A stretch of DNA of 17,932 nt from a virus, in UHGV virus genome UHGV-1599718; one strand, given 5' to 3'. Every line of letters begins with the position of its first letter. The stretch's first letter is position 1. The notes beneath the pieces are model-generated. The model saw only the letters and a program-made list of their open reading frames with translations. It was not told the origin of the DNA and made no database searches. Of the stretch, positions 1 to 17,932 are shown piece by piece. A program made the translations under genes and the position numbers.

Positions 1-94
1 TGACATTTTTTACAGGTCGGCGAGTCTGCGTCTTCCTTCCTTCGAGGATGGCCCTAACCATATCGTCATTAAAAACAACACCACGTTCTTTCAT
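1..94 (-). CDS. phage protein, N-terminal fragment only (gene continues beyond window start); ASCH-like N-terminal motif
   Basis: Minus-strand ATG at 94..92 overlaps the TGA of the upstream ORF (ATGA). It opens a frame reading MKERGVVFNDDMVRAILEGRKTQTRRPVKNV with no stop before position 1. The motif resembles ASCH-type phage proteins, from memory only. Confidence 0.35.
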   Translation of the reverse strand, partial: MKERGVVFNDDMVRAILEGRKTQTRRPVKNV

Positions 95-249
95 TTAGAA
101 GCCACCTTGTTCAATTTCCGGCGACAAGACACGCAATCATCAGGACTCTCAAAAGTGTCTGGCTCACGGTAATCACCAAAATACATCCAACGGCCGCAAA
201 TGCTGGTTACTTCACCTTCATTAAAATAATGATGTTTATTCGCCTTCAT
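91..249 (-). CDS. small Cys-rich hypothetical protein (about 52 aa, possible zinc-ribbon)
   Basis: Internal ATG at 249..247 (MKANKHHYF...) chosen over the track start at 345 to avoid a 67-nt overlap with the upstream gene. CxxxW and CxxC motifs present. Stop overlaps the next start. Confidence 0.35.
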   Translation of the reverse strand: MKANKHHYFNEGEVTSICGRWMYFGDYREPDTFESPDDCVSCRRKLNKVASK

Positions 250-278
250 TGGCCTGACCCATCCGGCATTTTTCTTGC

Positions 279-644
279 TCACTTCAACTCCTCCCGACGA
301 CGTTCCTGAAGCTCTAGCATTGCGGCTCGGAAATCCTGCCACCATTCTTCATCGGCTACTGGGGTGTTCCGCTCCAGCACCTTGTCCGCATCGGCGATCA
401 GGTTTGCCAGACTCTTGTCTGAAATCTTCGTTACCGGAGTCGTTGGTTGCTCAACCTGCCCGATAGGTTTTATCGTGCTCAAAAGGAGGCGACGGCGGGA
501 AAGTGGTGCCCCACAACGACGGCCATCTTCCTTGCGATATGTTTCTTTCGGACCAACACACCAGGTTGTCGGCGTCTCGCGCAACTTCACTTTTTTCTCA
601 CCATCATTGGTAATGATTATTCCGGTATGTGTTTTGATGCTCAT
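279..644 (-). CDS. hypothetical phage protein (121 aa)
   Basis: ORF with ATG at 644..642 overlapping the TGA of the upstream gene (ATGA), so part of the same minus-strand operon. No family recognised. Confidence 0.5.
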   Translation of the reverse strand: MSIKTHTGIIITNDGEKKVKLRETPTTWCVGPKETYRKEDGRRCGAPLSRRRLLLSTIKPIGQVEQPTTPVTKISDKSLANLIADADKVLERNTPVADEEWWQDFRAAMLELQERRREELK

Positions 645-922
645 GCCACAGCCCCTCTCAACGGCTTAACTTTGGCTAATAAGGTGTTAAACAACATGGA
701 GTTAGGATTCATGCCAAATGGCAATTCCGGTTTAGCGGAGTAGTACAGGCAACCATTTATTTTCCTGGTTGTTATCTGTCCTTCGGCAACCATGCTTCTC
801 AGTCTGCAACGCATAGAGTTCTGCGACACACCAATGTGCTCCGCGATTACGTCCACTTTTGAACATGGGTGATCGGTCAGGAAATTAATCACATCTTGGG
901 GGTTAATAATTTTGCGTTTCAT
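641..922 (-). CDS. putative winged-helix DNA-binding protein (93 aa)
   Basis: Second in-frame ATG at 922..920 has an AAGGA about 10 nt upstream; the first ATG at 943 lies inside an AT-rich repeat with no RBS. HTH-like segment VDVIAEHIGVSQNSMRCRLRSMVAEGQI. Confidence 0.45.
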   Translation of the reverse strand: MKRKIINPQDVINFLTDHPCSKVDVIAEHIGVSQNSMRCRLRSMVAEGQITTRKINGCLYYSAKPELPFGMNPNSMLFNTLLAKVKPLRGAVA

Positions 923-942
923 TGTCGAGGCATCCTTATACA

Positions 943-968
943 TTTATATAAATATATAATTCTATATA
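943..968. promoter_or_regulatory. AT-rich operator/promoter-like repeat (TATATAA / TCTATA family), copy a
   Basis: tttatataaatatataattctatata lies directly upstream of the 641..922 gene; same motif family as copies at 2152, 5908, 5982, 6688 and 11052. Confidence 0.35.
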
Positions 969-988
969 CGGCGGGAGACGTCCCGCCG
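969..988 (-). terminator. stem-loop, candidate terminator after the 355-aa gene
   Basis: Perfect inverted repeat cggcggga-gacg-tcccgccg 12 nt downstream of the stop at 1000; followed on the minus strand by an AT/U-rich stretch. Confidence 0.4.
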
Positions 989-999
989 TAGGCTTACTG

Positions 1000-2067
1000 T
1001 CAGGCTTTCAATAGCGATTCTTTTAGATATCGGGCATCAGCCAGGGCGTTTGGAGTAATCTTGCGAACCCATGCATTACGGGTTGGACTCCACTTAAAGG
1101 CGCGTGATTTAAGCAGCGAACGAATGTTTGCCTCTGGTTTGCCAGGGAAATAAAACAGGATGCGGTTATCCTCTGGATCTATCTCCATAGAAAAGCCGTC
1201 GTATTCTTCGCGCTGTGCTCCTGTTACAGACTTGACCGATTCAAGCTCCTTAATACGGCTCTGTAGTCGTTTGATTTCGGCGTTATTGTTGCTCAGTGCG
1301 TATGAAGGGAATCCGATGCGCCCACAGAAATCTCCGGCCAGTAACTCTTTGGCTTCGCTTTCTGTAAACCTGAGATCGATTAATGCAGAAAGCTGCTGTA
1401 ATTGGTCTTTTTTGTATTTGCGAATGGCCTTATTTGCGGCCTTCATTTTGACGTGTGACTTCATGCAGCCTTGCAGCTTACGAAGCAACTTAAATAGCGC
1501 ATCAGGATCATCAGACGAAATTCCATTACGACCAACACCTGCGGCTTTGCTCTCGTAGTGTGATGCTTTACTTTCGCATTCAACAAACGCTTTTCTGAAT
1601 AACGCATCAGCTTTAGACAAACGGCGGCGATGGCCTTTCGCGCTATAATGGTCAACTAAAATCGGCTGGCCTAACGGGATCACATCCAACAGGTCATGCG
1701 CTCGCTTATGCGCTACCGCACCTTCTTTTCTGGCTTTTTCTGCACGAGCAATATATCGGGCAAGACGCGCGTTCTGGCGTTCCTGATAGGTGTTTACGTA
1801 ATCATCTCCGCGCTGCTGCTGTTCAAGCCATGCTTTGCGCAGATCTTCTGTTACGTCCACCAGCTCCGCAGGGATACAACCAGTTTGGGCTTCATAAGAG
1901 TAACCATCCTCATAGATACGCCCATCGTCTTCAACAAAGAAAAAGGTTTCGTGCTCATCGCTTTTGACCATACGACCATTAACATGGCGTAATAGGTAGC
2001 CAGTATCAGTGCTTAACAGGCTGTTAGGGTTGTTGATCCAGTCAGAAATAATTACTTGTTTATTCAT
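1000..2067 (-). CDS. hypothetical protein (355 aa), unknown function
   Basis: Long uninterrupted ORF starting ATG at 2067..2065; preceded by the conserved 89-bp leader. No family confidently recognised (DUF3560-like is a weak recollection only). Confidence 0.75.
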   Translation of the reverse strand: MNKQVIISDWINNPNSLLSTDTGYLLRHVNGRMVKSDEHETFFFVEDDGRIYEDGYSYEAQTGCIPAELVDVTEDLRKAWLEQQQRGDDYVNTYQERQNARLARYIARAEKARKEGAVAHKRAHDLLDVIPLGQPILVDHYSAKGHRRRLSKADALFRKAFVECESKASHYESKAAGVGRNGISSDDPDALFKLLRKLQGCMKSHVKMKAANKAIRKYKKDQLQQLSALIDLRFTESEAKELLAGDFCGRIGFPSYALSNNNAEIKRLQSRIKELESVKSVTGAQREEYDGFSMEIDPEDNRILFYFPGKPEANIRSLLKSRAFKWSPTRNAWVRKITPNALADARYLKESLLKA

Positions 2068-2073
2068 CAGATT

Positions 2074-2162
2074 TCTCCGGTTTAACCAGGGCGGGTATCG
2101 CTCGGTTTCGGTTATAACCTTAGGAAATTTTTTCCCACCTGTAAAGCACTTTTTATATAAAT
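2074..2162 (-). promoter_or_regulatory. conserved 89-bp promoter/5-prime leader element, copy A
   Basis: 89 bp differing at 2 positions from 10975..11063, in both cases immediately upstream of a minus-strand start codon; contains the palindrome GGTTATAACC. Confidence 0.55.
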
Positions 2163-2188
2163 CTATAATTATATATTTATAGATTTTC
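2152..2188. promoter_or_regulatory. AT-rich operator-like repeat, copy b (10-bp inverted repeat AAATCTATAA / TTATAGATTT)
   Basis: ttttatataaatctataattatatatttatagatttt; inverted halves aaatctataa and ttatagattt separated by 7 bp. Confidence 0.4.
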
Positions 2189-2236: not shown

Positions 2237-2614
2237 TCACTCTCTTCGCTTTTTCAAATAGTCGACAACATACGCCCTGGCTTTTGCCAGCTTCCGGCGA
2301 TACTGTCTGAGACTAAGAGAAAGGGCGTGGGCTTTATCAATATGCGGTGCATTTATGTCGAGGCCCCGAATCTCCCACGCCCCGTATTCAATTCGGACAA
2401 CCAGCGCCGCAGTCTCATCAACTACCGTGAGGGCCGTCACCGCTCCCTCGATACTGGTTTCCAGTGAGTCATTTGGTGCGCCGCCCCCTCCGGTAAACTG
2501 GCAACGCGTAACCATCATCATTTCTAACATCGACGCGAAACCGCTACGGGCGTTGCAGCCATTGCGCACCCACAGCGCCCATAGCTCAAACAAGCTATCC
2601 AGATCGCGTCTCAC
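2237..2614 (-). CDS. phage antitermination protein Q-like (125 aa)
   Basis: N-terminal LFELWALWVRNG resembles the ERWGAWAANN motif of small Q-family antiterminators (QuuD-like), recalled from memory. GTG start at 2614..2612, 3 nt after the upstream stop. Confidence 0.55.
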   Translation of the reverse strand: MRRDLDSLFELWALWVRNGCNARSGFASMLEMMMVTRCQFTGGGGAPNDSLETSIEGAVTALTVVDETAALVVRIEYGAWEIRGLDINAPHIDKAHALSLSLRQYRRKLAKARAYVVDYLKKRRE

Positions 2615-2617: not shown

Positions 2618-2950
2618 TCAGATCTCCCGTATCGTGACGGGATAAAGCGCCTCTACCTGCTTTTTCTTCATGATGTAGACGTCTGTTCGCACACCTTTAG
2701 TGTCGACACAATCAATCGTCCCATCGTCATAAAACACCATGAAATCAAGTTTATAAACGACACCACCAGGCAGATGAAAAGGCACCTGCATAAGAAACGT
2801 CACAACGCGGCCAGCTTTTCTCAGTAGCTTCAGTTCGCAGTAGTAATCAGCCTCTTTTTTGCTATCAAAAGCGATATCATCGACAACAGTTTTTTTATTG
2901 CCGTATTTGCTTTTCCTAGTCGCTGGTTTGCGAAAGCCGGTATATCTCAT
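2618..2950 (-). CDS. DUF1064-like phage protein (110 aa)
   Basis: Motif GNKKTVVDDIAFDSKKEADYYCELKLL is typical of DUF1064 proteins in lambdoid nin regions. ATG overlaps the upstream stop (ATGA). Confidence 0.55.
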   Translation of the reverse strand: MRYTGFRKPATRKSKYGNKKTVVDDIAFDSKKEADYYCELKLLRKAGRVVTFLMQVPFHLPGGVVYKLDFMVFYDDGTIDCVDTKGVRTDVYIMKKKQVEALYPVTIREI

Positions 2951-3351
2951 TTGGTATCCCCTGGTACTTCACCAAGACTAAGATCAAACCCAATTTCGTC
3001 TTTAACTGACTGCGGCAACAGCTCCCACGTCTGCGCACACAAAAATTCATCGGTGCCATAACGCTCAACAAAGCGAGCACAATTACTCAGGGGAGGGTGA
3101 CGAACGGCAATATGCGGAGGCACGCGCCCACCACCAGGCACAACACCGCGATGATGTGGTGCGCACAACCCAAAGCTATGGAAGTGGCAATTCTCATCAA
3201 CGCTGCCGTAATCAGGATCGTGATGTAGCTCCGTCCACAGCTCTGGATTCTCAATTTCACGGCCATCAATAATGCAAGCTATGCAACCCACGTGAGTGAG
3301 CACCGCTTGTATATAAAGTTTCTCTTTCTTCGTTGGTGTACGTCCGTTCAT
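2947..3351 (-). CDS. putative HNH-type nuclease, Ref (recombination enhancement function)-like (134 aa)
   Basis: Cys/His-rich pattern (HVGCIACII ... HHDPDYGS ... CHFH ... CAPHH) consistent with an HNH/Ref-like fold. Start overlaps the upstream stop. Confidence 0.45.
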   Translation of the reverse strand: MNGRTPTKKEKLYIQAVLTHVGCIACIIDGREIENPELWTELHHDPDYGSVDENCHFHSFGLCAPHHRGVVPGGGRVPPHIAVRHPPLSNCARFVERYGTDEFLCAQTWELLPQSVKDEIGFDLSLGEVPGDTK

Positions 3352-3584
3352 CAGCGCCCCTTACCATTGATAAAGAGGTTGAACTCGTTGATTAACTGGA
3401 CATACATGCTTCTGGCCGCGTAGTTCTTTGCCAGCTCTTTACGGGATGAGATCCCGCAAAACTCACGCAGAATCACAGAGGCCTCAGAACTGTTTGAAAC
3501 GTTCTTCCCTGTTTTACTGGTCAGAAAGCGCCAGAATTGGGGATTCTGGCAATGCATCGCAGCACCGCGAACATAACTACTCAT
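3351..3584 (-). CDS. hypothetical phage protein (77 aa)
   Basis: ORF with start and stop overlapping its neighbours (ATGA at both ends). Confidence 0.45.
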   Translation of the reverse strand: MSSYVRGAAMHCQNPQFWRFLTSKTGKNVSNSSEASVILREFCGISSRKELAKNYAARSMYVQLINEFNLFINGKGR

Positions 3585-4096
3585 TGATGGCCCCCGTCAT
3601 TTCTAGTGCTTTTCACCGTGCGGCTTCTTAAAAACCTGCCATCACGAACAACAGACACTTCTCGTTTACCCAACCTCATTTCACGGCGGTAACATTCAGA
3701 AAATGCCTCGTCCGGCATCATATAAATGCGACGCTTCGCCTCCGTATCCAGAAGGGAACGGCTTGGGGTTACATATAAGAACGACTCATCAATAGGGACA
3801 AAACCACGAGCAAGAATTGCTGGCAGAATGCCAGGAAGAACGCAGAAAACAGCTCCACGATGCAGCAACATCTGGTACTCCATGACCTCCGTTATCCCCG
3901 TGACGACTGTTACGGTGTCACGTCTGTTACGGCTGGCAACCAGTCGCTGCACACGTCCAATTTTCTGATCTACAGATAGATGTTTGCTATCGTTATCAAT
4001 ATGATCGATAACAAATCCTTTAATCGTTTGATCAAGGTAGTGCACCACCTGCGATTGAATCTGGTGATTATCACCAAAGAAGGCCAGAATCATCAT
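3581..4096 (-). CDS. hypothetical phage protein (171 aa)
   Basis: ORF with ATG at 4096 overlapping the stop of the Cro-like gene; no family recognised. Confidence 0.55.
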   Translation of the reverse strand: MMILAFFGDNHQIQSQVVHYLDQTIKGFVIDHIDNDSKHLSVDQKIGRVQRLVASRNRRDTVTVVTGITEVMEYQMLLHRGAVFCVLPGILPAILARGFVPIDESFLYVTPSRSLLDTEAKRRIYMMPDEAFSECYRREMRLGKREVSVVRDGRFLRSRTVKSTRNDGGHQ

Positions 4097-4587
4097 TCCT
4101 CAAGCCTCCCAAGTGCTGAACGCCGGGCGTTGCTAATCTCCTTATGAATCAGCTCGATATCGCTGGAATCTTTATTCTTAAGCTCCAGCACGGCAATCGC
4201 ATCACGAACCTCTGAAACGGTTACGTGTGAGTGTTTCCAGCGAGCAATGAATCGCGGACCGCGTAGATTGCAACGCTCCGCAGGCATCCCCAGCTCAGAG
4301 AAAACCGCTTTCAGCCTTGATAAGCAGTTAACAGGGAGATTCCCTTTGATCTTGTTCTGCCGAACCGATGTGCCATCGCTACGCTGGCGCTGACGTTCGG
4401 CAAAATCTGCCGCCCATTGCTGGACGTTAATCCGGCCTTCCGAATACGCCACCAGCAGCGTCAGGTTATCCGCACGAGGGAATCTCTCGAAGCGATACCA
4501 GGCACCAATCAGTGATGACGTAAAGCCAAACTTTCTGGCAACACCAATTTGGCCTCCATTTTCGTCAACCCACTCCTGAAAGGTCAT
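4093..4587 (-). CDS. Cro-like HTH DNA-binding protein with C-terminal extension (164 aa)
   Basis: First gene of the leftward operon, divergent from the CI-like gene. GGAG RBS 9 nt upstream of ATG 4587. N-terminal HTH-like segment GQIGVARKFGFTSSLIGAWYRFER. Confidence 0.55.
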   Translation of the reverse strand: MTFQEWVDENGGQIGVARKFGFTSSLIGAWYRFERFPRADNLTLLVAYSEGRINVQQWAADFAERQRQRSDGTSVRQNKIKGNLPVNCLSRLKAVFSELGMPAERCNLRGPRFIARWKHSHVTVSEVRDAIAVLELKNKDSSDIELIHKEISNARRSALGRLEE

Positions 4588-4606
4588 TTAACGAACTCCA
4601 GTTAAA

Positions 4607-4642
4607 ACCACGATATGTGGTATTAAAACCACATATCGTGAG
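4607..4642. promoter_or_regulatory. tandem operators O1 (ACCACGATATGTGGT, 4607-4621) and O2 (ACCACATATCGTGAG, 4628-4642)
   Basis: Two 15-bp ACCAC-N5-GTGGT dyads with centres 21 bp apart, between divergent CI-like and Cro-like genes. On the minus strand they fall in the spacer and -10 region of a TTGAAA-N17-TTTAAT promoter candidate. Confidence 0.6.
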
Positions 4643-4709
4643 TTTTTCAATGGGCGAAACAAAAAATAACCTTCTATTTGTGGTCCACCTCTCGTCTTAC
4701 CATGTGAAA

Positions 4710-4724
4710 ACCACTAAATGTGGT
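4710..4724. promoter_or_regulatory. operator O3 (ACCACTAAATGTGGT) upstream of the CI-like gene
   Basis: Same dyad architecture, 38 bp upstream of the start at 4762; adjacent TATAAA at 4729-4735. Confidence 0.55.
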
Positions 4725-4761
4725 AATGTATAAATAACCCACCATTCACGATTGATGAGAC

Positions 4762-5460: not shown

Positions 5461-5475
5461 ACCACATTTTGTGGT
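5461..5475. promoter_or_regulatory. operator O4 (ACCACATTTTGTGGT) upstream of the 5511 gene
   Basis: Same dyad, immediately followed by TTGACA (5477-5482) and TATAAA (5494-5499), 36 bp before the ATG at 5511. Confidence 0.5.
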
Positions 5476-5890: not shown

Positions 5891-5908
5891 AGCGGGCTAA
5901 CGCCCGCT
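5891..5908 (+). terminator. stem-loop, candidate terminator after the 5511 gene
   Basis: agcgggc-taac-gcccgct directly after the stop at 5885, followed by an AT-rich run (ttatatgattat). Confidence 0.5.
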
Positions 5909-6013: not shown

Positions 6014-6035
6014 CAAACACATGGAGTCTCGACAA

Positions 6036-6689: not shown

Positions 6690-6720
6690 TATATAATTAT
6701 AGTTTTATAGATTTATATAA
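6688..6720. promoter_or_regulatory. AT-rich repeat copy e between the ParA gene and its partner
   Basis: aatatataattatagttttatagatttatataa starting at the ParA stop codon. Confidence 0.4.
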
Positions 6721-6732: not shown

Positions 6733-6981
6733 ATGGCCGCACCATCAAAACCACCAAAGAAGAACAGCAAAGGCGTACCGCCATCGATCGAACAACCGCA
6801 GGTTTTCGACCCGACTGAAACGCCAACCAGAACCAAATCAGGTGGGGCACAAATGGCGTTTAACGTCGACCCTGAATTTAAACGCGAGTACAAAACGTTC
6901 GCCAGCTCAATGGATATGTCATTGAAAGAAGTGCTGACAAAATCTTTTGAGTTACTCAAGTCTCAATACAACCAGAAGTAA
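6733..6981 (+). CDS. ribbon-helix-helix DNA-binding protein, ParG/Omega-like partition or regulatory partner (82 aa)
   Basis: Strong RBS AGAGGGG. Disordered basic N-terminus followed by an RHH-like C-terminus (AFNVDPEFKREYKTFASSMDMSLKEVLTKSFELL), immediately downstream of the ParA gene. Confidence 0.55.
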   Translation: MAAPSKPPKKNSKGVPPSIEQPQVFDPTETPTRTKSGGAQMAFNVDPEFKREYKTFASSMDMSLKEVLTKSFELLKSQYNQK

Positions 6982-7193: not shown

Positions 7194-7209
7194 ATTCAAC
7201 CATAAAAAA

Positions 7210-7225
7210 GGCCCCCGAAGGGGCC
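7210..7225. terminator. bidirectional intrinsic terminator
   Basis: ggcccc-cgaa-ggggcc flanked by an A-run on the left; on the minus strand the stem is followed by ttttttatgg. Confidence 0.5.
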
Positions 7226-7231
7226 TAATCG

Positions 7232-7354
7232 CTACTTGCTGCTAATGTTTATCGTCACATTCAGAGCGTTATCAGTAATCTTCCAACCCTCCCCATGTGG
7301 CGTAAACAAAGCTCCAGTAACAACGATAAAAATACACATACAGTATTTTTTCAT
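7232..7354 (-). CDS. possible small hydrophobic peptide (40 aa); speculative
   Basis: Internal ATG of ORF 7232..7414 gives MKKYCMCIFIVVTGALFTPHGEGWKITDNALNVTINISSK; ends at the minus-strand face of the 7210-7225 terminator. Weak RBS. Confidence 0.2.
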   Translation of the reverse strand: MKKYCMCIFIVVTGALFTPHGEGWKITDNALNVTINISSK

Positions 7355-7752
7355 TGTATGGCCCTTACAGGCCGTTTCACGGCATCCCCACCGACGAAAA
7401 CAACGCGAGAGCAAGCACGGCTGCTTGTGCTTGCATGTACGGCAACGGAGAATCCTCCCCTAAAGTCGGTGCCCGGGTGCGAATCGGCGGGAAGGTCCAC
7501 AGGTATTTTACGATTATTTTAAGATTAGTAATAGGAAAGAAATTAAACGAAAAAACTCGTTTATTTTCACAAAATCAGTAACCTACCCACAATCTGTGAG
7601 TTTGCAGGCACAACAAGAACCACAATTTTTTGAAGCATAATAGTGGACTATTATTACCTTTTGGGTAAAATTAACTTGCTGCTTGTGCTTGCGTGGTTGT
7701 TTATACAACAACGTAATGCTGAAAGGACCGCGAATCCGATCAGCACGAAAGA

Positions 7753-7779: not shown

Positions 7780-7925
7780 TTTCTGCCTACCAATAAACCC
7801 ACGCTATGTGGTTGTCTCTGTTAAAATCCCGCCGTATTGACATGAATGCGCCATTGGTGGACACTTTCCGAGCCGTAGCAAAATCTACGGTCGGGATTGG
7901 AACCCCGATAATCATCATGGCGCAT

Positions 7926-7946
7926 ACCGCGTTAGCGGTTTTTTTA
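7926..7946 (+). terminator. intrinsic terminator candidate in a non-coding region
   Basis: accgc-gtta-gcggt followed by TTTTTTT. Confidence 0.5.
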
Positions 7947-8110
7947 TGCGTAAAGCACTGCTACACCCAAATTATGGTGGGGCGTGCGGGGGAGTCGTAA
8001 GACTCGCCGGATTCCATGGTGACCGGTAGTTCCAACCCTGTACGTCTCACCACCCAATGATTGGAACCAGACGGTGGTGAGTATCCTTAACCTTTAAGGG
8101 AACTATCACC

Positions 8111-8302
8111 ATGACAAACTTACCCCATGACTATTACGTCAACCTCGTAAAGATCCTTCTCAAGAAAGCCTCATACGCCGATAAATTACGCTTGGCTGAA
8201 ATCATCGAGCGCGAAGCTATGCGCATCGCCAGCAACGATAACGCTGTTTCTGACGCAAAAATCTCCCTCGTAACCAAAGTAGTTATGGGAGGTGCAAAAT
8301 GA
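8111..8302 (+). CDS. small hypothetical phage protein (63 aa)
   Basis: ORF whose TGA overlaps the ATG of the downstream Rha-like gene (ATGA); weak RBS. Confidence 0.45.
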   Translation: MTNLPHDYYVNLVKILLKKASYADKLRLAEIIEREAMRIASNDNAVSDAKISLVTKVVMGGAK

Positions 8303-10250: not shown

Positions 10251-10523
10251 TCATTTGTTCCCTTGTTCCAATTCTGCCGACACTTTAACCTTTTCCCATA
10301 CAAGGGTTTGCAGCCTTAACAGAATCGCGTCTTTATCAAGGTGTGAAAGATCCTTCACCATATCGTCAAACGACAGAACGCGAATGGCCATCTCAATGAC
10401 CCTCGGCGGCTCCCCCTTCTCATATCGCTTATATGTAGCCAACGATATCCCAAATTCTTCGGCGGCTCGCTCCTGCGTCCAGTTCACCCCACGACGCCAT
10501 AATTTCAATTCATAACCCGTCAT
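10251..10523 (-). CDS. small HTH (XRE/Cro-like) DNA-binding protein (90 aa)
   Basis: ATG at 10523 preceded by GAGGAGGA at 5-nt spacing (the track start at 10556 is TTG). HTH-like segment WTQERAAEEFGISLATYKRYEKG. Confidence 0.6.
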   Translation of the reverse strand: MTGYELKLWRRGVNWTQERAAEEFGISLATYKRYEKGEPPRVIEMAIRVLSFDDMVKDLSHLDKDAILLRLQTLVWEKVKVSAELEQGNK

Positions 10524-10552
10524 AGCATCCTCCTCGCACAATATTAACACTC

Positions 10553-10577
10553 GCAAAGTGTCAAAATGACACTTTGC
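10553..10577. promoter_or_regulatory. perfect 11-bp inverted repeat GCAAAGTGTCA-AAA-TGACACTTTGC
   Basis: Sits between the 126-aa gene stop (10587) and the HTH gene start (10523); a 15-nt half-copy (tcaaaatgacacttt) recurs at 2223-2237 at the 3-prime end of the Q-like gene. Confidence 0.45.
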
Positions 10578-10586
10578 GCATTGTGT

Positions 10587-10967
10587 TTACTTAACGAGGA
10601 ATAAAAATGGTTTATTGTTCGGCGGTGTAATCGCGGCTGGCTCGCTTTTGCTCATGCGATCAGTGTACCAGGCCAGCTCCTTGTCAAAGTAAGCCTGATT
10701 AAAATAGGCAATGAATGTAGTTTCAAATCCATAACGGCCGCTAATACGCAGCATCTGATTGCCGTTCTCTGTTTCCAGATATACCTGGGCACGTTCCTGA
10801 TTCTCCTTCAGCCAGGTTAAAGCCTCATCGCATGAGGACACACGATACTCATCATCGTAGCAGTCATCGATGCGGCTTGAGGAAGAACGGCAAATCACGC
10901 CAACAGAACCAGCCAGGATAGTTTGAATTTTAAGGAAAGCGTTTTTGCGGATTTTAATCATGCTCAT
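10587..10967 (-). CDS. hypothetical protein (126 aa), unknown function
   Basis: ORF with ATG at 10967 immediately downstream of the second copy of the conserved leader. Confidence 0.65.
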   Translation of the reverse strand: MSMIKIRKNAFLKIQTILAGSVGVICRSSSSRIDDCYDDEYRVSSCDEALTWLKENQERAQVYLETENGNQMLRISGRYGFETTFIAYFNQAYFDKELAWYTDRMSKSEPAAITPPNNKPFLFLVK

Positions 10968-10974
10968 CGGGTTA

Positions 10975-11063
10975 TCTCCGGTTTAACCAGGGCGGGTATC
11001 GCTCGGTTTCGGGTATAACCTTAGGAAATTTCTTCCCACCTGTAAAGCACTTTTTATATAAAT
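10975..11063 (-). promoter_or_regulatory. conserved 89-bp promoter/5-prime leader element, copy B
   Basis: Differs from 2074..2162 at 2 positions, and the similarity continues about 13 bp into the adjacent AT-rich repeat; the flanking coding sequences are unrelated. Confidence 0.55.
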
Positions 11064-11086
11064 ATATAATTATATAATTCTATGAG
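11052..11086. promoter_or_regulatory. AT-rich operator-like repeat, copy f
   Basis: ttttatataaatatataattatataattctatgag. Confidence 0.4.
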
Positions 11087-11130: not shown

Positions 11131-11430
11131 TCAGATGTTAAACGCTATTCGTTTTCCTGTGGGAAGCTCAACATCCAGGCTTAATTTGCCTCCCATAGCT
11201 TCAACGTAACGCTTTAATGTCGCCAGCTTTAAATCATTTCCGCGCTGCTCCAGCTTTGTTACTGCTGGCTGGCTTATACCCATCGCCTCAGCAACCTGTT
11301 TTTGTGATAACTGGAGTTCTTCACGCATCATCTGCAAGCCGACCTCAAGAATCATCTCATCTGCCATTTCTTTAATTCGCGCCTGGCTTTCCGGTGAACG
11401 GCTGGCAATCGCCTCATCTAATGTTCTCAT
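11131..11430 (-). CDS. HTH (XRE-type) antitoxin, HigA-like addiction-module antidote protein (99 aa)
   Basis: HTH segment LQLSQKQVAEAMGISQPAVTKLEQRGNDLKLATLKRYVEAMGGKL; start overlaps the toxin stop (TAATG). Confidence 0.7.
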   Translation of the reverse strand: MRTLDEAIASRSPESQARIKEMADEMILEVGLQMMREELQLSQKQVAEAMGISQPAVTKLEQRGNDLKLATLKRYVEAMGGKLSLDVELPTGKRIAFNI

Positions 11431-11777
11431 TACTTGCTCTCCAGTGTGTTCAGATGTGCTGCAAACTCATCCTCAGCTATACGCACCAGTTTTTCATAAA
11501 ACCGCTTATCGTTACTTTTGTCTCCTGCACAAAGAACGATGGCCCGGCGAATCGGATCGAACGCATAAAAGGCTCTTATCGGACGGCCAGAAAACTGAAC
11601 GCGAAGCTCTTTCATATTTTTGTACCGAGAACCTTTTACGGTATCGGCATATGGCCTGGGTAACTCAGGTCCGTAAACCTGTAGCTTTTTCAAATCAGCC
11701 AAAACCTTTTCCTGAAGAGCGTCTTCTTGCTCATTTAGCCAGTCGTCAAATCGCTGGCTAAAAAGTACCGTCCACAT
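11430..11777 (-). CDS. RelE/ParE-superfamily toxin, HigB / Gp49-like addiction-module killer protein (115 aa)
   Basis: ATG at 11777 with AGGA RBS (the track start at 11783 is TTG). Motifs WLNE..., RAFYAFDPIRRAIVLCAGDK, FYEKLVRIAEDEF and the toxin-first gene order match HigB-type killer proteins. Confidence 0.7.
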   Translation of the reverse strand: MWTVLFSQRFDDWLNEQEDALQEKVLADLKKLQVYGPELPRPYADTVKGSRYKNMKELRVQFSGRPIRAFYAFDPIRRAIVLCAGDKSNDKRFYEKLVRIAEDEFAAHLNTLESK

Positions 11778-11786
11778 GCTCAATCC

Positions 11787-12285: not shown

Positions 12286-12388
12286 AATGTTAGCGCCAGT
12301 GATATAAGACGGTAATTCACCATTTGGATTGTCCGCTCCACCCAACATGTTGTTTCCTTAAGGTTCCCACACCAGAAAGGACATCAAC

Positions 12389-14358
<1,970 letters not shown>

Positions 14359-14443
14359 CGAAAGTATTTTAGCGGGCATGAAAATGGCAAATAACGGTTA
14401 AAAATCGTGGCGTTGACAATAACAAACCTCATATTTGCATGTT

Positions 14444-14802: not shown

Positions 14803-15129
14803 TTCGTATAAGACAAGTTTTCTATACCTAATAGGAAATCATGATTCTTACGTTTTATCGCGTTCTGATGGCTACTGTGTGCGTATTTATCGACGTTTAT
14901 TGATAAAGCTCACCCCTTCCTCCTGCAAAGCCCGGCCGTAGGCCTTATTTCGGCCTTATATAAATTGATTTTGTATAGTTCGAAACGCGCCGTTTCGAAA
15001 AGGATGATCAGGCTGCTCCATGCCTCCGGCAAGTGCCGGAGGAGGTATATTTGAGCGTAGCGATTCGAACCGGCGCGAGCTTTAGCTCGCTGCAAGGGCG
15101 AACATATTCACAGGCAAAGCCTGGGTAAG

Positions 15130-15370
15130 TTAAATAAAGAAAGTCTTAATAAAAGAAAGTGATTTTGCATTTATTTGTTTAGTGCATCTATTATAAAAAA
15201 CCATTTGCATATATGTATCAAAACTGTGGATAACTTTATTAGCCGATGCCTGTAAAGGCGATATTTTCGCTGTGTTCAGGTTTAGAGAAAATTAATTTAG
15301 ATTGTTTTTTGAACAGGTATTTTATTGCGACGTAGATAATCCTCCGGTAAAACCGGATTCATCATTCAGG
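15130..15370. other. putative replication origin region of the IncFII-type replicon (AT-rich, DnaA box, short direct repeats)
   Basis: Lies immediately downstream of the RepA stop. TGTGGATAA (complement TTATCCACA, the DnaA box consensus) at 15225-15233; AAAGAAAGT at 15136-15144 and 15152-15160; ATTTGCAT repeated. Confidence 0.4.
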
Positions 15371-15374
15371 TGGG

Positions 15375-16223
15375 TTAATGTTGGAGTGATTTCCAGGTCT
15401 TTCTTAGCCTGTTATAACGCTGCTCAACGAGGGATCGTAAATATGCAAGGTCAGCACCAGGATACATGCCATCAGCAAATTCCTGACTAACCTCTCTGGT
15501 GATTTGATGACGAAGTTCGGCCTCTCCCTTTTCACGAACAAGACGCGCAGCTCTCTCCGCTGCTTTCTGTTTTGCCTTTATCTCTCTGGCCGTCTTCCTC
15601 TGACGCCATACATTCTCCATCTGCTCCTGAATAACAATACGCTTATAATCAGCCTCCGTTATCGCTTTTTTAAGCCGTTCGCTATTCTTCGCATTGAAGT
15701 AATTAAGTTTCTGGCTAACCGCACGTCTCCATGCTTGTTCAGTAATACCAACGGTTTCCAGCAGTTGATCACGAATCTCTATTTTCGCTGGCCAATACTG
15801 TTTATTCACCCGATCCCAGCGACGTTCATAATCAATAAAACCTAACGCTTTCAGTTGCGACAACGCCCTTGTACAGCGCGTTATAGACTTGTTCCCAGCT
15901 TCGGATACGGTAGACAGGCCGCAAAAATCAGCCAACGCCTCAGCACTGGCCAGAACCCGCTTAGAAATGATGTTTACATGGTGCAAAATCGCAGCAATCA
16001 CAGCATTAATCGCCCGACGACGATGCTCGTTTATCCGGCGTTTCCGCTCTGACGGTTGATTAACGTAGAACGCAACCTCACACGTAAGATCACGACCATT
16101 AATGCGCTGTAAAGCATCAGATAATACCAGCGGCAGCTTGTGCGTATGGTGCTTTGGAGGCTGGAACTCCGGCGACAAATTACAAACGTAAGCTGAACGT
16201 AGAGACGGCATTGGTCTATCCAT
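15375..16223 (-). CDS. repA: IncFII-type plasmid replication initiator RepA (RepFIIA family, about 283 aa)
   Basis: Segment RRRAINAVIAAIL ... ADFCGLSTVSEAGNKSITRCTRALSQLKALGFIDYERRWD aligns by eye with R100/R1 RepA1 (RRRAIDALLQGL ... AIECGLATESAAGKLSITRATRALTFLSELGLITYQTEYD). Start placed at MDRPMPSL (16223); an in-frame upstream ATG at 16361 would add 46 aa and may instead be a leader ORF. Confidence 0.8.
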   Translation of the reverse strand: MDRPMPSLRSAYVCNLSPEFQPPKHHTHKLPLVLSDALQRINGRDLTCEVAFYVNQPSERKRRINEHRRRAINAVIAAILHHVNIISKRVLASAEALADFCGLSTVSEAGNKSITRCTRALSQLKALGFIDYERRWDRVNKQYWPAKIEIRDQLLETVGITEQAWRRAVSQKLNYFNAKNSERLKKAITEADYKRIVIQEQMENVWRQRKTAREIKAKQKAAERAARLVREKGEAELRHQITREVSQEFADGMYPGADLAYLRSLVEQRYNRLRKTWKSLQH

Positions 16224-16267
16224 ATGTTCGCTCTTGCGTCCACGGAAAACCAACGTATAATGGGAGT

Positions 16268-16353
16268 TGTCGAGGCGCCCATGGATTGTTGTTGGTTTTT
16301 GTTTCTTTCCGTGGATGTCGCAAGAAGCCCGCAGATTTATCTGCGGGCTTTTT
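16268..16353 (+). ncRNA. candidate CopA-like antisense RNA of the repA leader
   Basis: Plus-strand TTGCGT (16234-16239), 16 bp spacer, TATAAT (16256-16261), then about 85 nt ending in the hairpin agcccgcag-atttat-ctgcgggct plus TTTT (16326-16353). Antisense to the region upstream of the repA start. Confidence 0.45.
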
Positions 16354-16397
16354 GTTTCCATATCTGGTCACTTTTCAACCAGACACCCACAATCATA

Positions 16398-16412
16398 ACC
16401 ACGTTACGTGGT
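16398..16412. promoter_or_regulatory. operator O5 (ACCACGTTACGTGGT) in the repA promoter region
   Basis: Same ACCAC-N5-GTGGT dyad as O1-O4, about 175 bp upstream of the repA start, adjacent to a TATGAT -10 candidate on the minus strand. Confidence 0.5.
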
Positions 16413-16542
16413 TTTAAGAGAACTCTACCACAACACTTTCGGTCATGCACGAAGTCTCTCACTGATCGAACGATAATCCACCAGTAAAAGGATCTAAATT
16501 GGATCTCGTTTTGCGAGCATCATACTACTGGCCTAACTCCAG

Positions 16543-17097
16543 TCAATGATTCCCAGCCGGAAACCTGCGGTAAAGCGTGGATAAGGTAACATCGAAGATA
16601 ATCGCTATCCGCTTACGTGAAACACCATTCGCAATAAGCCTTCCGATCTGTTCCCATTGCTCTGGTGCCAATTTTGAGCGGCGTCCTCCTATCCTGCCGT
16701 TAGCCCTTGCCACCGCCAATCCTGCACGCGTTCTTTCAATCATATTTTCCCGCTCCATCTCTGCGACTGCACTCAGCATCGTGTAGGCAAAGCGGCCAAT
16801 TGAAGTGCTAATTTTTATCCCTTCCGTAATCGAAATAAACTCAATGTTGTTTGATAAAAAATAGTTTAGTAAATCAACAAGATGAATCAGAGAACGCCCC
16901 ATTCGGTCCAGCTTCCAGACAATAACCGTATCGCCCGGCCGTAACACCTTCAGTAGCTTATCAAGTCCTGGTCGTTTTGATTTAGCACCGGATATTTTAT
17001 CTTCAAAAATCCGGTCACATCCTGAACTCCTGAGCGCCTCCAATTGTAATTCCAAATTCTGGTCAAAAGTTGACACCCTCGCATAACCATATTGCAT
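16543..17097 (-). CDS. serine recombinase, DNA invertase of the Hin/Gin/Cin/Pin family (184 aa)
   Basis: N-terminus MQYGYARVSTFDQNLELQ with catalytic-Ser context; VWKLDRMGRS; C-terminal HTH (RKRIAIIFDVTLSTLYRR). Near-collinear by eye with e14 Pin. Confidence 0.9.
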   Translation of the reverse strand: MQYGYARVSTFDQNLELQLEALRSSGCDRIFEDKISGAKSKRPGLDKLLKVLRPGDTVIVWKLDRMGRSLIHLVDLLNYFLSNNIEFISITEGIKISTSIGRFAYTMLSAVAEMERENMIERTRAGLAVARANGRIGGRRSKLAPEQWEQIGRLIANGVSRKRIAIIFDVTLSTLYRRFPAGNH

Positions 17098-17107
17098 ACT
17101 TTCTAAA

Positions 17108-17932
17108 CCGCGATTGTTGCTAAAAGCGGGAAAAAATATCGTTCAGACGACACAGAGGCAATTCGCAAAAACCTCGGTTTACAGGAAACGGTAAATAAGG
17201 CTGGTAACGCCGTTCAAAAGACAGGTGATACCTTGTCCGGCGGACTTACTTTTGAAAACGACTCAATCCTTGCCTGGATTCGGAATACTGACTGGGCAAA
17301 GATTGGATTTAAAAATGATGCCGACAGCGATACTGATTCATACATGTGGTTTGAAACAGGCGACAACGGAAATGAATATTTCAAATGGAGAAGCCGCCAG
17401 AGCACCACAACAAAAGACCTGATGAATCTTAAATGGGATGCTTTGTCTGTCCTTGTTAAAGCCCTTTTCAGCAGTGAAGTAAAAATATCGACAGTCAATG
17501 CACTGAGGATATTTAATTCATCTTTTGGTGCCATTTTTCGCCGTTCTGAAGAATGCCTGCATATCATCCCGACACGAGAGAATGAGGGAGAAAATGGTGA
17601 TATAGGGCCACTACGCCCCTTTACGCTTAATCTCAGAACTGGTCGGATAAGCATGGGGCATGGTCTTGATGTTACAGGGGATATATTTGCAAACCGTTTT
17701 GCAATTAACAGTAGTACCGGCATGTGGATTCATATGCGTGACCAGAATGTTATTTTGGGACGCAATGCGGTATCCACCGATGGTGCACAGGCATTACTTC
17801 GTCAGGACCATGCTGATCGCAAATTTATGATTGGTGGACTGGGAAATAAGCAATTTGGCATCTACATGATTAATAACTCAAGGACAGCCAATGGCACCGA
17901 TGGTCAGGCGTACATGGATAATAACGGGAACT
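17108..17932 (+). CDS. tail-fibre C-terminal variable segment (no start codon of its own; 3-prime end beyond window); probably the silent alternative copy inside an invertible segment
   Basis: Open frame from the stop at 17105 to the window end, absent from the ORF track because it has no in-window stop. Translation ... NRFAINSSTGMWIHMRDQNVILGRNAVSTDGAQALLRQDHADRKFMIGGLGNKQFGIYMINNSRTANGTDGQAYMDNNGN resembles phage tail-fibre C-termini. Confidence 0.6.
17162..17187. other. gix/hix-like recombination crossover site
   Basis: TTCGCAAAAACC-TC-GGTTTACAGGAA: the right half equals the Mu gix half-site and the left half matches the TTATCAAAAACC consensus at 9-10 of 12 positions. It lies 65 bp from the invertase start, inside the tail-fibre reading frame. 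Confidence 0.65.

What the first reader, a model, noticed from the sequence alone, without database searches (positions are those of the whole stretch)
1..17932. Hybrid phage/plasmid architecture: lambdoid-type immunity and Q genes beside an IncFII RepA replicon, ParA/RHH partition pair, toxin-antitoxin module and invertible tail-fibre switch
One 18-kb stretch carries temperate-phage hallmarks (CI-like repressor with S24 domain, Cro-like gene, Q antiterminator, nin-like genes, Rha antirepressor, invertase plus tail fibre) and plasmid-maintenance hallmarks (IncFII-type RepA with antisense RNA and DnaA box, ParA plus RHH partner, HigBA-like module). No lambdoid O/P-type replication genes sit between the Cro-like gene and Q. 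This suggests an element that persists as a plasmid prophage, with replication supplied by RepA.
Basis: partly seen in the sequence, partly recalled or inferred. Interest (0 to 1): 0.7.

Follow-up and report, generated by a model that had tools for sequence, protein, structure and literature searches.

The report
Phage-plasmid regulatory and maintenance half
This 18-kb stretch is the control and maintenance half of a roughly 48-kb virus of E. coli and its relatives that lives as a free plasmid; dozens of near-identical copies are already in public databases, so it is real but not a surprise.

Summary
The window is 98-99% identical to about 60 circular, non-mobilizable 46-52 kb plasmids of Escherichia, Klebsiella aerogenes and Salmonella. 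It is equally close to three 49-kb Yersinia phage genomes. The relatives carry complete myovirus head, tail and lysis modules and no conjugation genes.

Tools confirm these parts:
- an IncFII-family RepA, with a conserved antisense RNA and the window's only perfect DnaA box;
- ParA;
- a HigB/HTH pair;
- an ORF6N-Rha antirepressor;
- a Gin-type invertase with a crossover site and a silent tail-fibre segment.

The 'Q' gene has no Pfam hit. It is nevertheless a remote relative of phage 21 Q.

Three points need correcting. The CI-like repressor lacks the S24 Ser/Lys dyad. 'Cro-like' is positional only. The RHH fold could not be shown.

- an IS21 insertion;
- a P1/N15-type C4 RNA module in front of the antirepressor;
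- a ryfA/TimP-type toxin locus;
- CI-type operators, including one in the repA leader;
- dispersed 8-bp repeat arrays at par and several other gene starts.

The regulatory logic resembles N15 and P1 more than lambda. This is a new member of a known kind; interest is moderate to low.

The parts
641..943 (-). 100-aa winged-helix (MarR-like) protein; an 8-bp repeat array (936-967) overlaps its start
   Evidence: phrog_1687 E 5e-32; array
1000..2067 (-). DUF3560 protein, 355 aa; its C-terminal half matches a PHROG annotated as primase
   Evidence: Pfam DUF3560 E 3.8e-31; phrog_19458 E 2e-37
2055..2181 (-). Copy A of a ~115-bp direct repeat. It holds an 8-bp array, a promoter-like TTTACA-17-TAAGGT, and the RBS and ATG of the DUF3560 gene. 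It lies directly downstream of the Q-like gene
2237..2614 (-). Q21-type antiterminator-like protein, 125 aa (NCBIfam PA0613 family, weak hit)
2618..3351 (-). DUF1064 (resolvase-like) and Ref-like RecA-dependent nuclease genes
   Evidence: Pfam PF06356 E 7e-19 and PF16786 E 1.6e-11
3351..4587 (-). Three genes of unknown function (77, 171 and 164 aa). The 164-aa gene (4093-4587) occupies the 'cro' position, divergent from cI
   Evidence: PHROG families of unknown function only; no Pfam, NCBIfam or PDB hit; AF2 model pLDDT 62
4588..4761 (.). Divergent control region with operators ACCAC-N5-GTGGT at 4607-4621 and 4710-4724, and degenerate copies at 4628-4642 and 4670-4684
   Evidence: arms conserved in the diverged relative L011
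4762..5418 (+). CI-like repressor: N-terminal Cro/C1 HTH and a degenerate S24-like C-terminal domain (Glu133 where Ser is expected; Leu170/Arg171 where Lys is expected)
5461..5475 (.). Further perfect CI-type operator, between cI and the 124-aa gene at 5511-5885
   Evidence: conserved in L011
5908..6020 (.). Two clusters of 8-bp units (TTATAKAW) upstream of parA: candidate centromere/operator
   Evidence: conserved in L011
6021..6689 (+). Small ParA-type partition ATPase, 222 aa
   Evidence: Pfam CbiA/ParA/MipZ; NCBIfam ParA_partition E 5e-22 (78.5 bits, below its 180-bit cut-off)
6733..6981 (+). 82-aa partner of ParA, putative RHH centromere-binding protein; preceded by an 8-bp array at 6697-6720
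   Evidence: Position and sequence pattern only; no family or PDB hit
7204..7500 (-). ryfA-type RNA with a 40-codon hydrophobic ORF (7232-7354): a TimP-like type I toxin locus
   Evidence: Rfam RF00126 142 bits against a gathering score of 80; ORF translation; PMC7667032 (listed; only its title and the start of its abstract were seen)
7838..8113 (+). ImmI-type control region: promoter-like TTGACA-17-GACACT (7838-7866), IsrK/a1b1-like leader (7859-7945), C4 antisense RNA (7970-8057), and the C4 target spanning the RBS and ATG of orf63 (8099-8113)
   Evidence: Rfam C4 84 bits, IsrK 70 bits; loop-target complementarity; loop and target covary in L011
8111..9441 (+). orf63 (in the position of icd, not a homologue) overlapping by 4 nt the ORF6N-Rha antirepressor gene (8299-9441)
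10251..11085 (-). 126-aa gene and 101-aa HTH gene, preceded by copy B of the ~115-bp repeat (10964-11085)
11131..11783 (-). HigB-type (Gp49/RelE-ParE) toxin and HTH antitoxin; the two coordinate ranges share one base
   Evidence: Pfam PF05973 E 6e-23 and HTH_3 E 4e-10
12288..14418 (+). IS21 (istA, istB), 2131 bp, with 4-bp target duplication ATAA. It is inserted 2 nt upstream of the ATG of an 87-aa gene (12022-12285, -)
14900..15374 (-). Candidate origin region downstream of repA, with the perfect DnaA box (15225-15233) and AT-rich repeats
   Evidence: the position is analogous to R1 oriR (own knowledge)
15375..16223 (-). RepA, IncFII family. The start is ATG 16223 or ATG 16211; the 328-aa in-frame extension is not conserved
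16234..16360 (+). Antisense RNA gene in the repA leader: promoter 16234-16261, RNA about 16266-16360, with stem-loop I and a terminator
16398..16412 (.). Perfect CI-type palindrome ACCACGTTACGTGGT in the repA leader, about 100 nt downstream of the predicted repA promoter (16519-16546, -)
   Evidence: arms conserved and spacer variable in L011 and L012
16543..17097 (-). Gin/Hin/Cin-type serine DNA invertase
   Evidence: Pfam Resolvase E 3e-44 and HTH_7
17163..17932 (+). gix/cix-like crossover site (about 17163-17190), followed by a silent alternative tail-fibre C-terminal segment that runs off the window

Best explanation
The window is the non-structural half of a temperate myovirus that is kept in lysogens as a low-copy plasmid (a phage-plasmid).

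Shown by homology and comparison:
- An IncFII-family RepA, with an origin-like region downstream of it, supplies replication.
- A small ParA with an 82-aa partner, a HigB/HTH pair and a ryfA/TimP-type locus are maintenance functions.
- A CI-like repressor sits divergent to an early operon that ends in a distant relative of phage 21 Q.
- A C4-type antisense RNA precedes an ORF6N-Rha antirepressor.
- A Gin-type invertase adjoins alternative tail-fibre ends.

Inferred mechanism:
1. RepA synthesis is set by a ~95-nt antisense RNA. It pairs with the repA leader, possibly through a leader ORF whose stop lies 4 nt before ATG 16211.
2. Lysogeny is held by the CI-like protein binding ACCAC-N5-GTGGT operators between cI and the early operon.
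3. The same palindrome in the repA leader lets CI damp repA, as CB does at the N15 repA promoter. Loss of CI would then raise the copy number for lytic growth. This would explain why no O/P-type genes are present.
4. CI lacks a recognisable Ser/Lys dyad, so induction probably goes through the antirepressor. The C4 RNA blocks its translation by pairing across the orf63 RBS and ATG, as in P1 ImmI and N15 immA.
5. The Q-like protein turns on the late genes.
6. The 8-bp arrays upstream of parA are the centromere. Their copies at several other gene starts may make the ParA partner a wider regulator.

IS21 is a recent passenger.
For: Identity and state of the element.

RepA, DnaA box and antisense RNA, including conservation of its promoter and a compensatory stem change.

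Leader ORF.

Operators: 4 perfect sites and 1 with one mismatch in the window, against 0.3 expected. In the full 50-kb relative the perfect copies lie only in the immunity region and the repA leader. In relatives of 72-74% identity the arms are kept while the spacer and flanks diverge.

No catalytic dyad in CI. No LexA box.

C4 module: Rfam 84 bits. Loop segments 8015-8022 and 8027-8033 are complementary to the contiguous stretch 8099-8113. L011 carries a C4 whose loop (CUGCAAA) and targets (UUUGCAG) have changed together.

Q.

Arrays: 21 matches against 0.01 expected; 8 loci in L001; conserved in L011.

N15 precedent for repressor operators at repA and an RNA-controlled antirepressor: PMC4488713.
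Against: - No experiment bears on this copy, and the window holds no replicon junction.
- The repA-leader palindrome lies about +100 from the predicted promoter. No conserved promoter overlaps it, and it could be an RNA hairpin instead.
- The operator near the ImmI promoter has one mismatch and is not seen in L011.
- The dyad-loss argument rests on low-identity alignments. An Ala-Gly resembling the LexA cleavage site is retained.
- The RHH fold and the binding of the arrays by the ParA partner are untested.
- Rfam's CopA model does not match.
- The classic IncFII equivalog TIGR03474 scores far below its cut-off (79 against 447).
- A separate lytic replication function could lie in DUF3560 or outside the window.
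Confidence: 0.85

Rival explanations
1. It is a defective or domesticated element: a plasmid carrying a decaying prophage or a tailocin-like cluster, which no longer makes infectious virus.
For: IS elements occur in family members: IS21 here, and IS3 inside the tail-fibre gene of CP099184.1. One relative is only 39 kb. Most records are annotated simply as plasmids.
Against: Three full-length genomes are deposited as phages with Y. pestis EV76-CN given as host, and two as E. coli phages. The relatives read in full keep complete head, tail, lysis and packaging genes. IS21 here leaves every gene with an assigned role intact.
Confidence: 0.08
2. RepA serves plasmid maintenance only. Lytic replication uses another function, such as DUF3560 with its primase-like C-terminal half or genes outside the window. 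The ACCAC-N5-GTGGT palindrome in the repA leader would then be an mRNA hairpin that belongs to the antisense control, not a CI operator.
For: The palindrome is about 100 nt downstream of the predicted promoter, with no conserved promoter over it. Conserved arms with a variable spacer also fit a stem with a variable loop. DUF3560 matches phrog_19458, annotated 'primase'. P1 has a separate lytic replicon (own knowledge).
Against: The arms are identical to those of the operators in the cI control region. A perfect copy is expected about 0.05 times by chance in 50 kb (my own estimate). N15 shows exactly this coupling (PMC4488713). No recognisable initiator, helicase loader or polymerase gene is annotated in the relatives.
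Confidence: 0.3
3. It is a chromosomal lambdoid prophage that picked up a plasmid replicon fragment.
For: The window alone shows no replicon ends. The cI/early-operon/Q order looks lambdoid.
Against: All near-full-length matches among 5,426 complete E. coli genomes are separate plasmid records of 39-52 kb. All 61 PLSDB records are plasmids. No integrase is listed in the annotated relatives. RepA, the antisense RNA, the DnaA box and par are intact and conserved.
Confidence: 0.03

Closest known systems
Linear phage-plasmid N15 (and PY54, phiKO2)
   Same: - A CI-like repressor (CB), a divergent early operon and Q in one immunity region.
- Repressor operators both in that region and at the replication gene repA, so the prophage repressor sets the copy number.
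- A single RepA and no O/P genes.
- A second immunity locus in which a small RNA controls an antirepressor.
(PMC4488713.)
- Dispersed partition sites (own knowledge).
   Different: - N15 is a linear siphovirus with a telomere resolvase, and its large RepA is unrelated. Here the relatives are circular myoviruses with an IncFII-family RepA and antisense RNA control.
- The partition system is a small ParA with an 82-aa partner, not SopAB.
- No DNA similarity was found.
Phage-plasmids P1/P7, ImmI region (c4-icd-ant) and C segment
   Same: - C4 antisense RNA (Rfam RF01695, 84 bits), with an a1b1-like leader and loop-target pairing over the RBS of the first ORF.
- That ORF is translationally coupled to the antirepressor.
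- A non-cleavable repressor countered by an antirepressor, and operators scattered over the genome (own knowledge of P1).
- A Ref-like nuclease.
- A Cin/Gin-type invertase, with tail-fibre ends 88% identical to P1/P7 S.
   Different: - The repressor is a Cro/C1-HTH protein, not P1 C1.
- orf63 has no similarity to Icd, or to anything in deposited phages other than the three Yersinia copies.
- The replicon is not the P1 RepA/iteron type.
- The genome is half the size.
- The head genes are closest to Vibrio phages X29, phi 2 and Rostov 7 (63-65% terminase identity).
IncFII (R1/R100) basic replicon
   Same: - RepA of Pfam PF02387.
- A counter-transcribed ~95-nt two-hairpin RNA in the leader.
- A leader ORF ending next to the repA start.
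- A DnaA box and an AT-rich region downstream of repA.

   Different: - It scores as NCBIfam RepA_IncFII_LM, not as the classic IncFII equivalog (79 against 447 bits).
- No Rfam CopA match.
- No copB gene: the gene upstream is the invertase.
- A CI-type palindrome sits in the leader.
- No replicon type was shown for the two relatives inspected.
Phage 21 / 933W Q antiterminators (Pfam PF06530)
   Same: Collinear profile match, and the predicted fold is closest to Q21, with a sigma region-4-like C-terminal HTH. It is the last gene of the early operon and is followed by a promoter-like repeat.
   Different: The protein itself does not reach any Pfam threshold. It is shorter (125 aa against 157-162 aa). 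It belongs to a separate family of about 130 cluster representatives, which also gives a weak match to NCBIfam PA0613_fam. No Q-binding site or terminator was identified.

Membership tests
Phage-plasmid | Plasmid replication and partition genes together with a complete phage structural, packaging and lysis set on one replicon | tested here: met
   The window holds RepA and ParA. Relatives 98-99% identical hold terminase, portal, capsid, sheath, tube, baseplate, holins and endolysin.
Phage-plasmid | Extrachromosomal in the lysogen | tested here: inconclusive
   All 61 PLSDB relatives are plasmid records, and the two read in full are circular. All near-full-length hits in complete E. coli genomes are plasmid records. 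The state of this copy is not visible in the window.
Phage-plasmid | Produces infectious particles | not testable with these tools
   Indirect only: the same genome is deposited as Yersinia phage vB_YpM_39/41/44 and as E. coli phage records. No paper was found.
IncFII (R1/R100-type) replicon | RepA of the IncFII RepA family | tested here: met
   PF02387 E 1.3e-43; NF040977 232 bits against 70.
IncFII (R1/R100-type) replicon | Equivalog of classic IncFII RepA | tested here: not met
   TIGR03474 79 bits against a cut-off of 447; PRK13750 82 bits against 478.
IncFII (R1/R100-type) replicon | CopA-type antisense RNA against the repA leader | tested here: inconclusive
   No Rfam CopA match at E<=1. 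A conserved antisense promoter and a two-hairpin RNA with a compensatory change are present.
IncFII (R1/R100-type) replicon | CopB repressor gene upstream of repA | tested here: not met
   The upstream gene is the invertase. No small ORF with a family hit lies in 16362-16542.
IncFII (R1/R100-type) replicon | Leader peptide translationally coupled to repA | tested here: inconclusive
   A 51-codon ORF ends 4 nt before ATG 16211. The arrangement is kept in L012 but not in L011.
Lambdoid phage | CI repressor with an autocleaving S24 domain | tested here: not met
   The S24 hit is below threshold. Glu stands at the Ser position and Leu/Arg at the Lys position. The neighbouring Ser136 is Ala in a relative. 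The alignments are low-identity.
Lambdoid phage | O/P-type replication genes in the early right operon | tested here: not met
   The genes between 4093 and 2614 are of unknown function, DUF1064 or Ref-like.
Lambdoid phage | Divergent cI/cro with multiple shared operators | tested here: inconclusive
   Operators are present. The gene in the cro position is 164 aa with no detectable HTH family.
Q21-type antiterminator (PF06530) | Match to the family model | tested here: inconclusive
   No Pfam hit for the protein itself. The family profile hits Q21 in the PDB at E 3.7e-5, and hhalign against Q933W gives E 3.4e-5. 10 of 113 relatives hit PF06530.
P1-type ImmI (c4-icd-ant) | C4 RNA with loops complementary to sites at the RBS of the downstream ORF | tested here: met
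   RF01695 84 bits; 8+7 nt of contiguous target complementarity over the ATG; covariation in L011.
P1-type ImmI (c4-icd-ant) | An Icd homologue | tested here: not met
   orf63 matches only the three Yersinia phage copies among 50,697 phage records. P1 Ant was not compared; the antirepressor here is of the ORF6N/Rha type.
Type Ib partition system (small ParA + RHH protein + upstream repeats) | Small Walker-type ParA without an N-terminal HTH | tested here: met
   222 aa; CbiA/ParA/MipZ hits over the whole length.
Type Ib partition system (small ParA + RHH protein + upstream repeats) | Ribbon-helix-helix centromere-binding partner | tested here: inconclusive
   No Pfam, NCBIfam or PDB hit, alone or as a profile. 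Only the sequence pattern fits (strand MAFNV, then two helices).
Type Ib partition system (small ParA + RHH protein + upstream repeats) | Repeat array upstream of the operon | tested here: met
   Two clusters of 4-5 8-bp units at 5908-6020, conserved in L011. Binding is not testable.
Gin/Hin/Cin invertible tail-fibre switch | Serine invertase, a crossover site, and alternative fibre ends in inverted order | tested here: met
   The second crossover site lies outside the window. Relatives show two opposed tail-fibre assembly genes.
HigBA-type toxin-antitoxin | Gp49/HigB toxin gene upstream of an HTH antitoxin gene | tested here: met
   PF05973 E 6e-23; HTH_3 and HTH_37.
ryfA/TimP type I toxin | ryfA RNA with a short hydrophobic ORF | tested here: met
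   RF00126 142 bits; the 40-aa ORF MKKYCMCIFIVVTGALF.... A TimR-like antisense RNA was not looked for.

The most novel reading that the evidence does not exclude
One IncFII-type replicon may serve both lysogenic maintenance and lytic amplification because the phage repressor binds inside the repA leader. The repressor would thus take over the role that CopB has in R1, on top of the antisense RNA control. In parallel, the small ParA partner would bind eight dispersed 8-bp arrays and so act as both centromere protein and global regulator of the non-structural genes. That would make this un-named 48-kb myovirus lineage a circular, independently assembled counterpart of the N15 control circuit.
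Probability: 0.3. Interest if true: 0.55.

Novelty: new member of a known kind. Interest (0 to 1): 0.35.

Why it matters
Phage-plasmids move genes by infection while persisting like plasmids. This lineage occurs in clinical, animal and environmental Escherichia, including the reference strain ATCC 25922. It is not among the types listed in the phage-plasmid typing scheme I could read (PMC12977533). It is usually annotated as a cryptic non-mobilizable plasmid, so its ability to spread as a virus is easily overlooked.

Its control circuit combines parts known from N15, P1, R1 and phage 21. If the repressor does gate the IncFII-type replicon, the element is a compact system for studying how one origin is switched between maintenance and lytic amplification. 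As a sequence, however, it is already well represented in databases, and the general idea is not new.

Tried and rejected
- Literature: searches for a name or description of this family found only P1-, SSU5- and N15-type elements. No supplementary tables were held for the Pfeifer 2021 paper.
- A scan of one-genome-per-species contigs for RepA found nothing. IMG/VR gave the diverged relatives that were used instead.
- Single-sequence PDB searches for the 'Q', 'Cro' and ParA-partner proteins gave nothing useful. So did the first shallow 'Q' profile and hhalign with that shallow alignment (prob 1.3%).
- The profile of the ParA partner found no RHH structure.
- The AF2 model of the 164-aa 'Cro-position' protein was too poor (pLDDT 62) to search with.
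- No LexA box is present. SOS control of the antirepressor through LexA inside this window is therefore rejected.
- Weak Rfam hits to Thr_leader, CsrC and RNAI are terminator-like chance matches.
- A second repA promoter overlapping the leader palindrome was considered and dropped, because the -10-like TATGAT is not conserved in L011 or L012.
- The 328-aa extended RepA was rejected, because relatives have 10- and 13-nt indels in that stretch.
- SSU5/pSLy3 membership was rejected on size and morphology.

Full report
**What is in the window**

ORF listing and family searches give the following gene order.

On the minus strand, from 4587 down to 91, lies an early operon:
- a 164-aa protein of unknown family;
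- 171-aa and 77-aa proteins of unknown function;
- a Ref-like RecA-dependent nuclease (PF16786);
- DUF1064;
- a DUF3560 protein;
- a MarR-like protein and two small proteins of unknown function.

On the plus strand lie:
- a 218-aa HTH repressor (4762-5418) and a 124-aa protein of unknown function;
- ParA (6021-6689), an 82-aa partner and a 60-aa ORF;
- further on, a 63-aa ORF overlapping an ORF6N+Rha antirepressor (8299-9441).

Back on the minus strand lie:
- an HTH gene and a 126-aa gene;
- a Gp49/HigB toxin with an HTH antitoxin (11131-11783);
- an 87-aa gene;
- IS21;
- a 99-aa gene;
- RepA (PF02387, E 1.3e-43);
- a serine invertase (16543-17097).

The window ends in tail-fibre coding sequence.

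**What element it belongs to**

Megablast finds the window at 98-99% identity, apart from IS21 and the tail-fibre end, in circular plasmids of 46-52 kb. These include the plasmid of E. coli ATCC 25922. It also finds the window in Yersinia phages vB_YpM_39, 41 and 44, each 49 kb.

The backbone segment 2237-7193 occurs in 61 PLSDB records. All are typed non-mobilizable. They come from E. coli, E. albertii, E. fergusonii and K. aerogenes, with more distant copies in Salmonella.

Full annotation of two relatives shows terminase, portal, ClpP-like protease, decoration and capsid proteins. It also shows sheath, tube, tape measure, baseplate and tail fibres with two opposed assembly genes, plus two holins, a GH108 endolysin and a tRNA. 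There are no transfer genes. A terminase 99.8% identical to that of the relative CP099184.1 is also present in two E. coli phage records. The nearest other phages are Vibrio myoviruses X29, phi 2 and Rostov 7, at 63-65% identity.

Only the three Yersinia records among 50,697 phage records encode this RepA. I found no paper describing the lineage. It is absent from the types listed in the phage-plasmid typing paper I could read. The window itself ends inside the element on both sides.

**The replicon**

RepA scores as NCBIfam RepA_IncFII_LM (232 bits, cut-off 70). It falls far below the classic IncFII equivalog (79 against 447). It is therefore a member of the IncFII RepA superfamily but not an R1/R100-type protein.

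The only perfect DnaA box in the window lies about 140 bp downstream of the repA stop, in an AT-rich repeat region.

Rfam's CopA model does not match. The leader nevertheless holds a + strand promoter, TTGCGT-16-TATAAT, and a ~95-nt RNA with a large-loop hairpin and a terminator (-41.4 kcal/mol, z -5.8). Two relatives have only 72-74% nucleotide identity here (L011 and L012, from IMG/VR). In both, the antisense promoter is invariant. The terminator stem shows an A-U to G-C double change. The first stem is kept through G-U and A-U changes, and its loop differs in sequence and length. That is the pattern expected of an incompatibility-determining antisense RNA.

The 10- and 13-nt indels in that loop rule out the 328-aa in-frame RepA extension that some annotations use. 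A 51-codon leader ORF ends 4 nt before ATG 16211. This resembles translational coupling, but it is kept in only one of the two relatives.

**Immunity**

The region between cI and the early operon holds two perfect and two degenerate ACCAC-N5-GTGGT palindromes. Further copies lie:
- just after cI (5461);
- upstream of the antirepressor operon promoter (7798, one mismatch);
- in the repA leader (16398).

Five sites were found against 0.3 expected. In the full 50-kb relative, perfect copies occur only in the immunity region and the repA leader. In L011 the cI product is only 65% identical, and L012 is similarly diverged. In both, the arms at the repA site are kept while the spacer (GTTAC, ACAAC, ACATC) and the flanks change.

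This matches N15, where the CB repressor binds three operators between cB and cro and two at the repA promoter, and so sets the copy number (PMC4488713). Here the site is about 100 nt downstream of the predicted repA promoter, and no conserved promoter overlaps it. A roadblock role is therefore an inference, and an RNA-hairpin role remains possible.

The repressor's C-terminal domain gives only a sub-threshold S24 hit. In every alignment I could make:
- Glu133 takes the place of the catalytic Ser (NDELMSPT against GDSM.PT);
- Leu170 or Arg171 takes the place of the Lys;
- the nearby Ser136 is Ala in L011;
- the ATCC 25922 copy has a two-residue insertion at that spot.

An Ala-Gly like the LexA cleavage site is retained. 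I infer a non-cleaving repressor, with moderate confidence.

**The antirepressor module**

Rfam finds an IsrK/a1b1-like leader (7859-7945) and a C4 antisense RNA (7970-8057, 84 bits) directly upstream of orf63 and the antirepressor. The two unpaired C4 segments, CAUGGUGA and UAGUUCC, are complementary to the contiguous sequence GGAACUAUCACCAUG, which spans the orf63 start codon. L011 has its own C4. Its loop (CUGCAAA) and both flanking targets (UUUGCAG) have changed together.

This is the P1/P7 ImmI and N15 immA design. orf63 is not an Icd homologue. No LexA box is present. Some relatives carry an extra HTH gene inserted at 7784/7795, just upstream of this operon.

**The 'Q' gene**

The protein itself has no Pfam hit, only a weak full-length NCBIfam match to PA0613_fam. 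A profile search of 1.84 billion representatives returned 130 small proteins. An alignment of 113 of them gave three results:
- it hits phage 21 Q in the PDB at E 3.7e-5, with the next hit at 0.24;
- it aligns with Q of 933W, a PF06530 member, at 72% probability and E 3.4e-5 over 111 columns;
- ten members reach PF06530 individually.

**Partition and dispersed repeats**

ParA is a small Walker-type ATPase. Its 82-aa partner has the sequence pattern of an RHH protein, but no search could show this.

Units of 8 bp (TTATAKAW) form arrays:
- upstream of parA, in two clusters;
- between parA and its partner;
- at the starts of the MarR-like, DUF3560 and 126-aa genes.

There are 21 matches against 0.01 expected. 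The full relative has eight such loci, and the arrays are conserved in L011.

Three of the arrays are part of a ~115-bp repeat that also carries a promoter-like sequence and the RBS and ATG of the gene that follows. One copy lies directly after the Q-like gene. A centromere role for the arrays at par, and a wider regulatory role elsewhere, is a hypothesis. It is modelled on omega of pSM19035 and on the dispersed N15 centromeres (own knowledge).

**Other maintenance and passenger elements**

A ryfA-type RNA (142 bits) with a 40-codon hydrophobic ORF lies at 7204-7500. Chromosomal ryfA encodes the membrane toxin TimP, which is repressed by the small RNA TimR (title of PMC7667032). L011 lacks it.

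IS21 (2131 bp, target duplication ATAA) sits 2 nt upstream of the ATG of an 87-aa gene. It is absent from CP099184.1, vB_YpM_39 and the ATCC 25922 plasmid.

The invertase is followed by a gix/cix-like site and a promoterless tail-fibre C-terminal segment, 88-95% identical to those of Mu, SfMu, P1 and P7.

**Verdict**

'Lambdoid' should be replaced by 'N15/P1-like control with an IncFII-family replicon'. The sequence family is already abundant in databases and the concept is established, so this is a new member of a known kind and of moderate to low interest. The most interesting open point is whether the repressor gates the replicon.

Noticed in passing
window 12288-14418: IS21 (istA/istB), with 4-bp duplication ATAA, is inserted 2 nt upstream of the start codon of an 87-aa gene (12022-12285, -). 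It is absent from the three relatives compared base by base. Another family member (NZ_CP032259.1) also carries an IS21.
   Followed up: yes
window 7204-7500 (-): A ryfA-family RNA (142 bits) with a 40-aa hydrophobic ORF, MKKYCMCIFIVVTGALFTPHGEGWKITDNALNVTINISSK. It looks like a plasmid-borne TimP-type type I toxin. A TimR-like antisense RNA was not searched for. The diverged relative L011 lacks the locus.
   Followed up: partly
window 2055-2181 and 10964-11085; third copy at L001 37603-37733: A ~115-bp direct repeat (about 95% identical between copies) includes an 8-bp array, a promoter-like TTTACA-17-TAAGGT with a GGAAA..TTTCC dyad in its spacer, and the RBS and ATG of three unrelated genes. 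One copy directly follows the Q-like gene, so it may be a shared late or regulated promoter.
   Followed up: partly
window 936-967, 2153-2184, 5908-6012, 6697-6720, 11054-11085; eight loci in L001: Arrays of the 8-bp unit TTATAKAW lie at the par operon and at several other gene starts. They are conserved in a relative of 74% identity. The binding protein is unknown.
   Followed up: partly
window 2237-2614 (-) and alignment A5: The Q-like protein belongs to a family of about 130 cluster representatives with no Pfam model. Its only NCBIfam match is a weak one (E 2.5e-4) to PA0613_fam. I recall PA0613 as a gene of the Pseudomonas aeruginosa pyocin cluster; if so, that gene may also be a Q21-type antiterminator.
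   Followed up: no
between window 7784 and 7795 (L003 19495-20299; L002 30747-31427): Relatives, including the ATCC 25922 plasmid and the Yersinia phages, carry an extra ~0.7-0.8 kb with an HTH regulator gene at this point, just upstream of the antirepressor operon. The window and CP099184.1 lack it. It may be a second regulator of the antirepressor.
   Followed up: no
L011 6142-6685 (window-like orientation): The diverged relative has a C4 RNA with a different loop/target pair, followed directly by a short Rha-type antirepressor and no orf63. This looks like a heteroimmune variant of the module.
   Followed up: partly
L001 40060-40095: Two adjacent one-mismatch copies of the CI-type palindrome lie at the start of a ParB/Srx-domain gene, ahead of the packaging genes. 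They may be a further repressor-controlled point outside the window.
   Followed up: no
window 9441-10250: About 800 bp have no convincing gene apart from a 62-aa ORF annotated in relatives (9452-9640, -). The stretch is conserved at 77% in L011 from 9664 onward. Its function is unknown.
   Followed up: no
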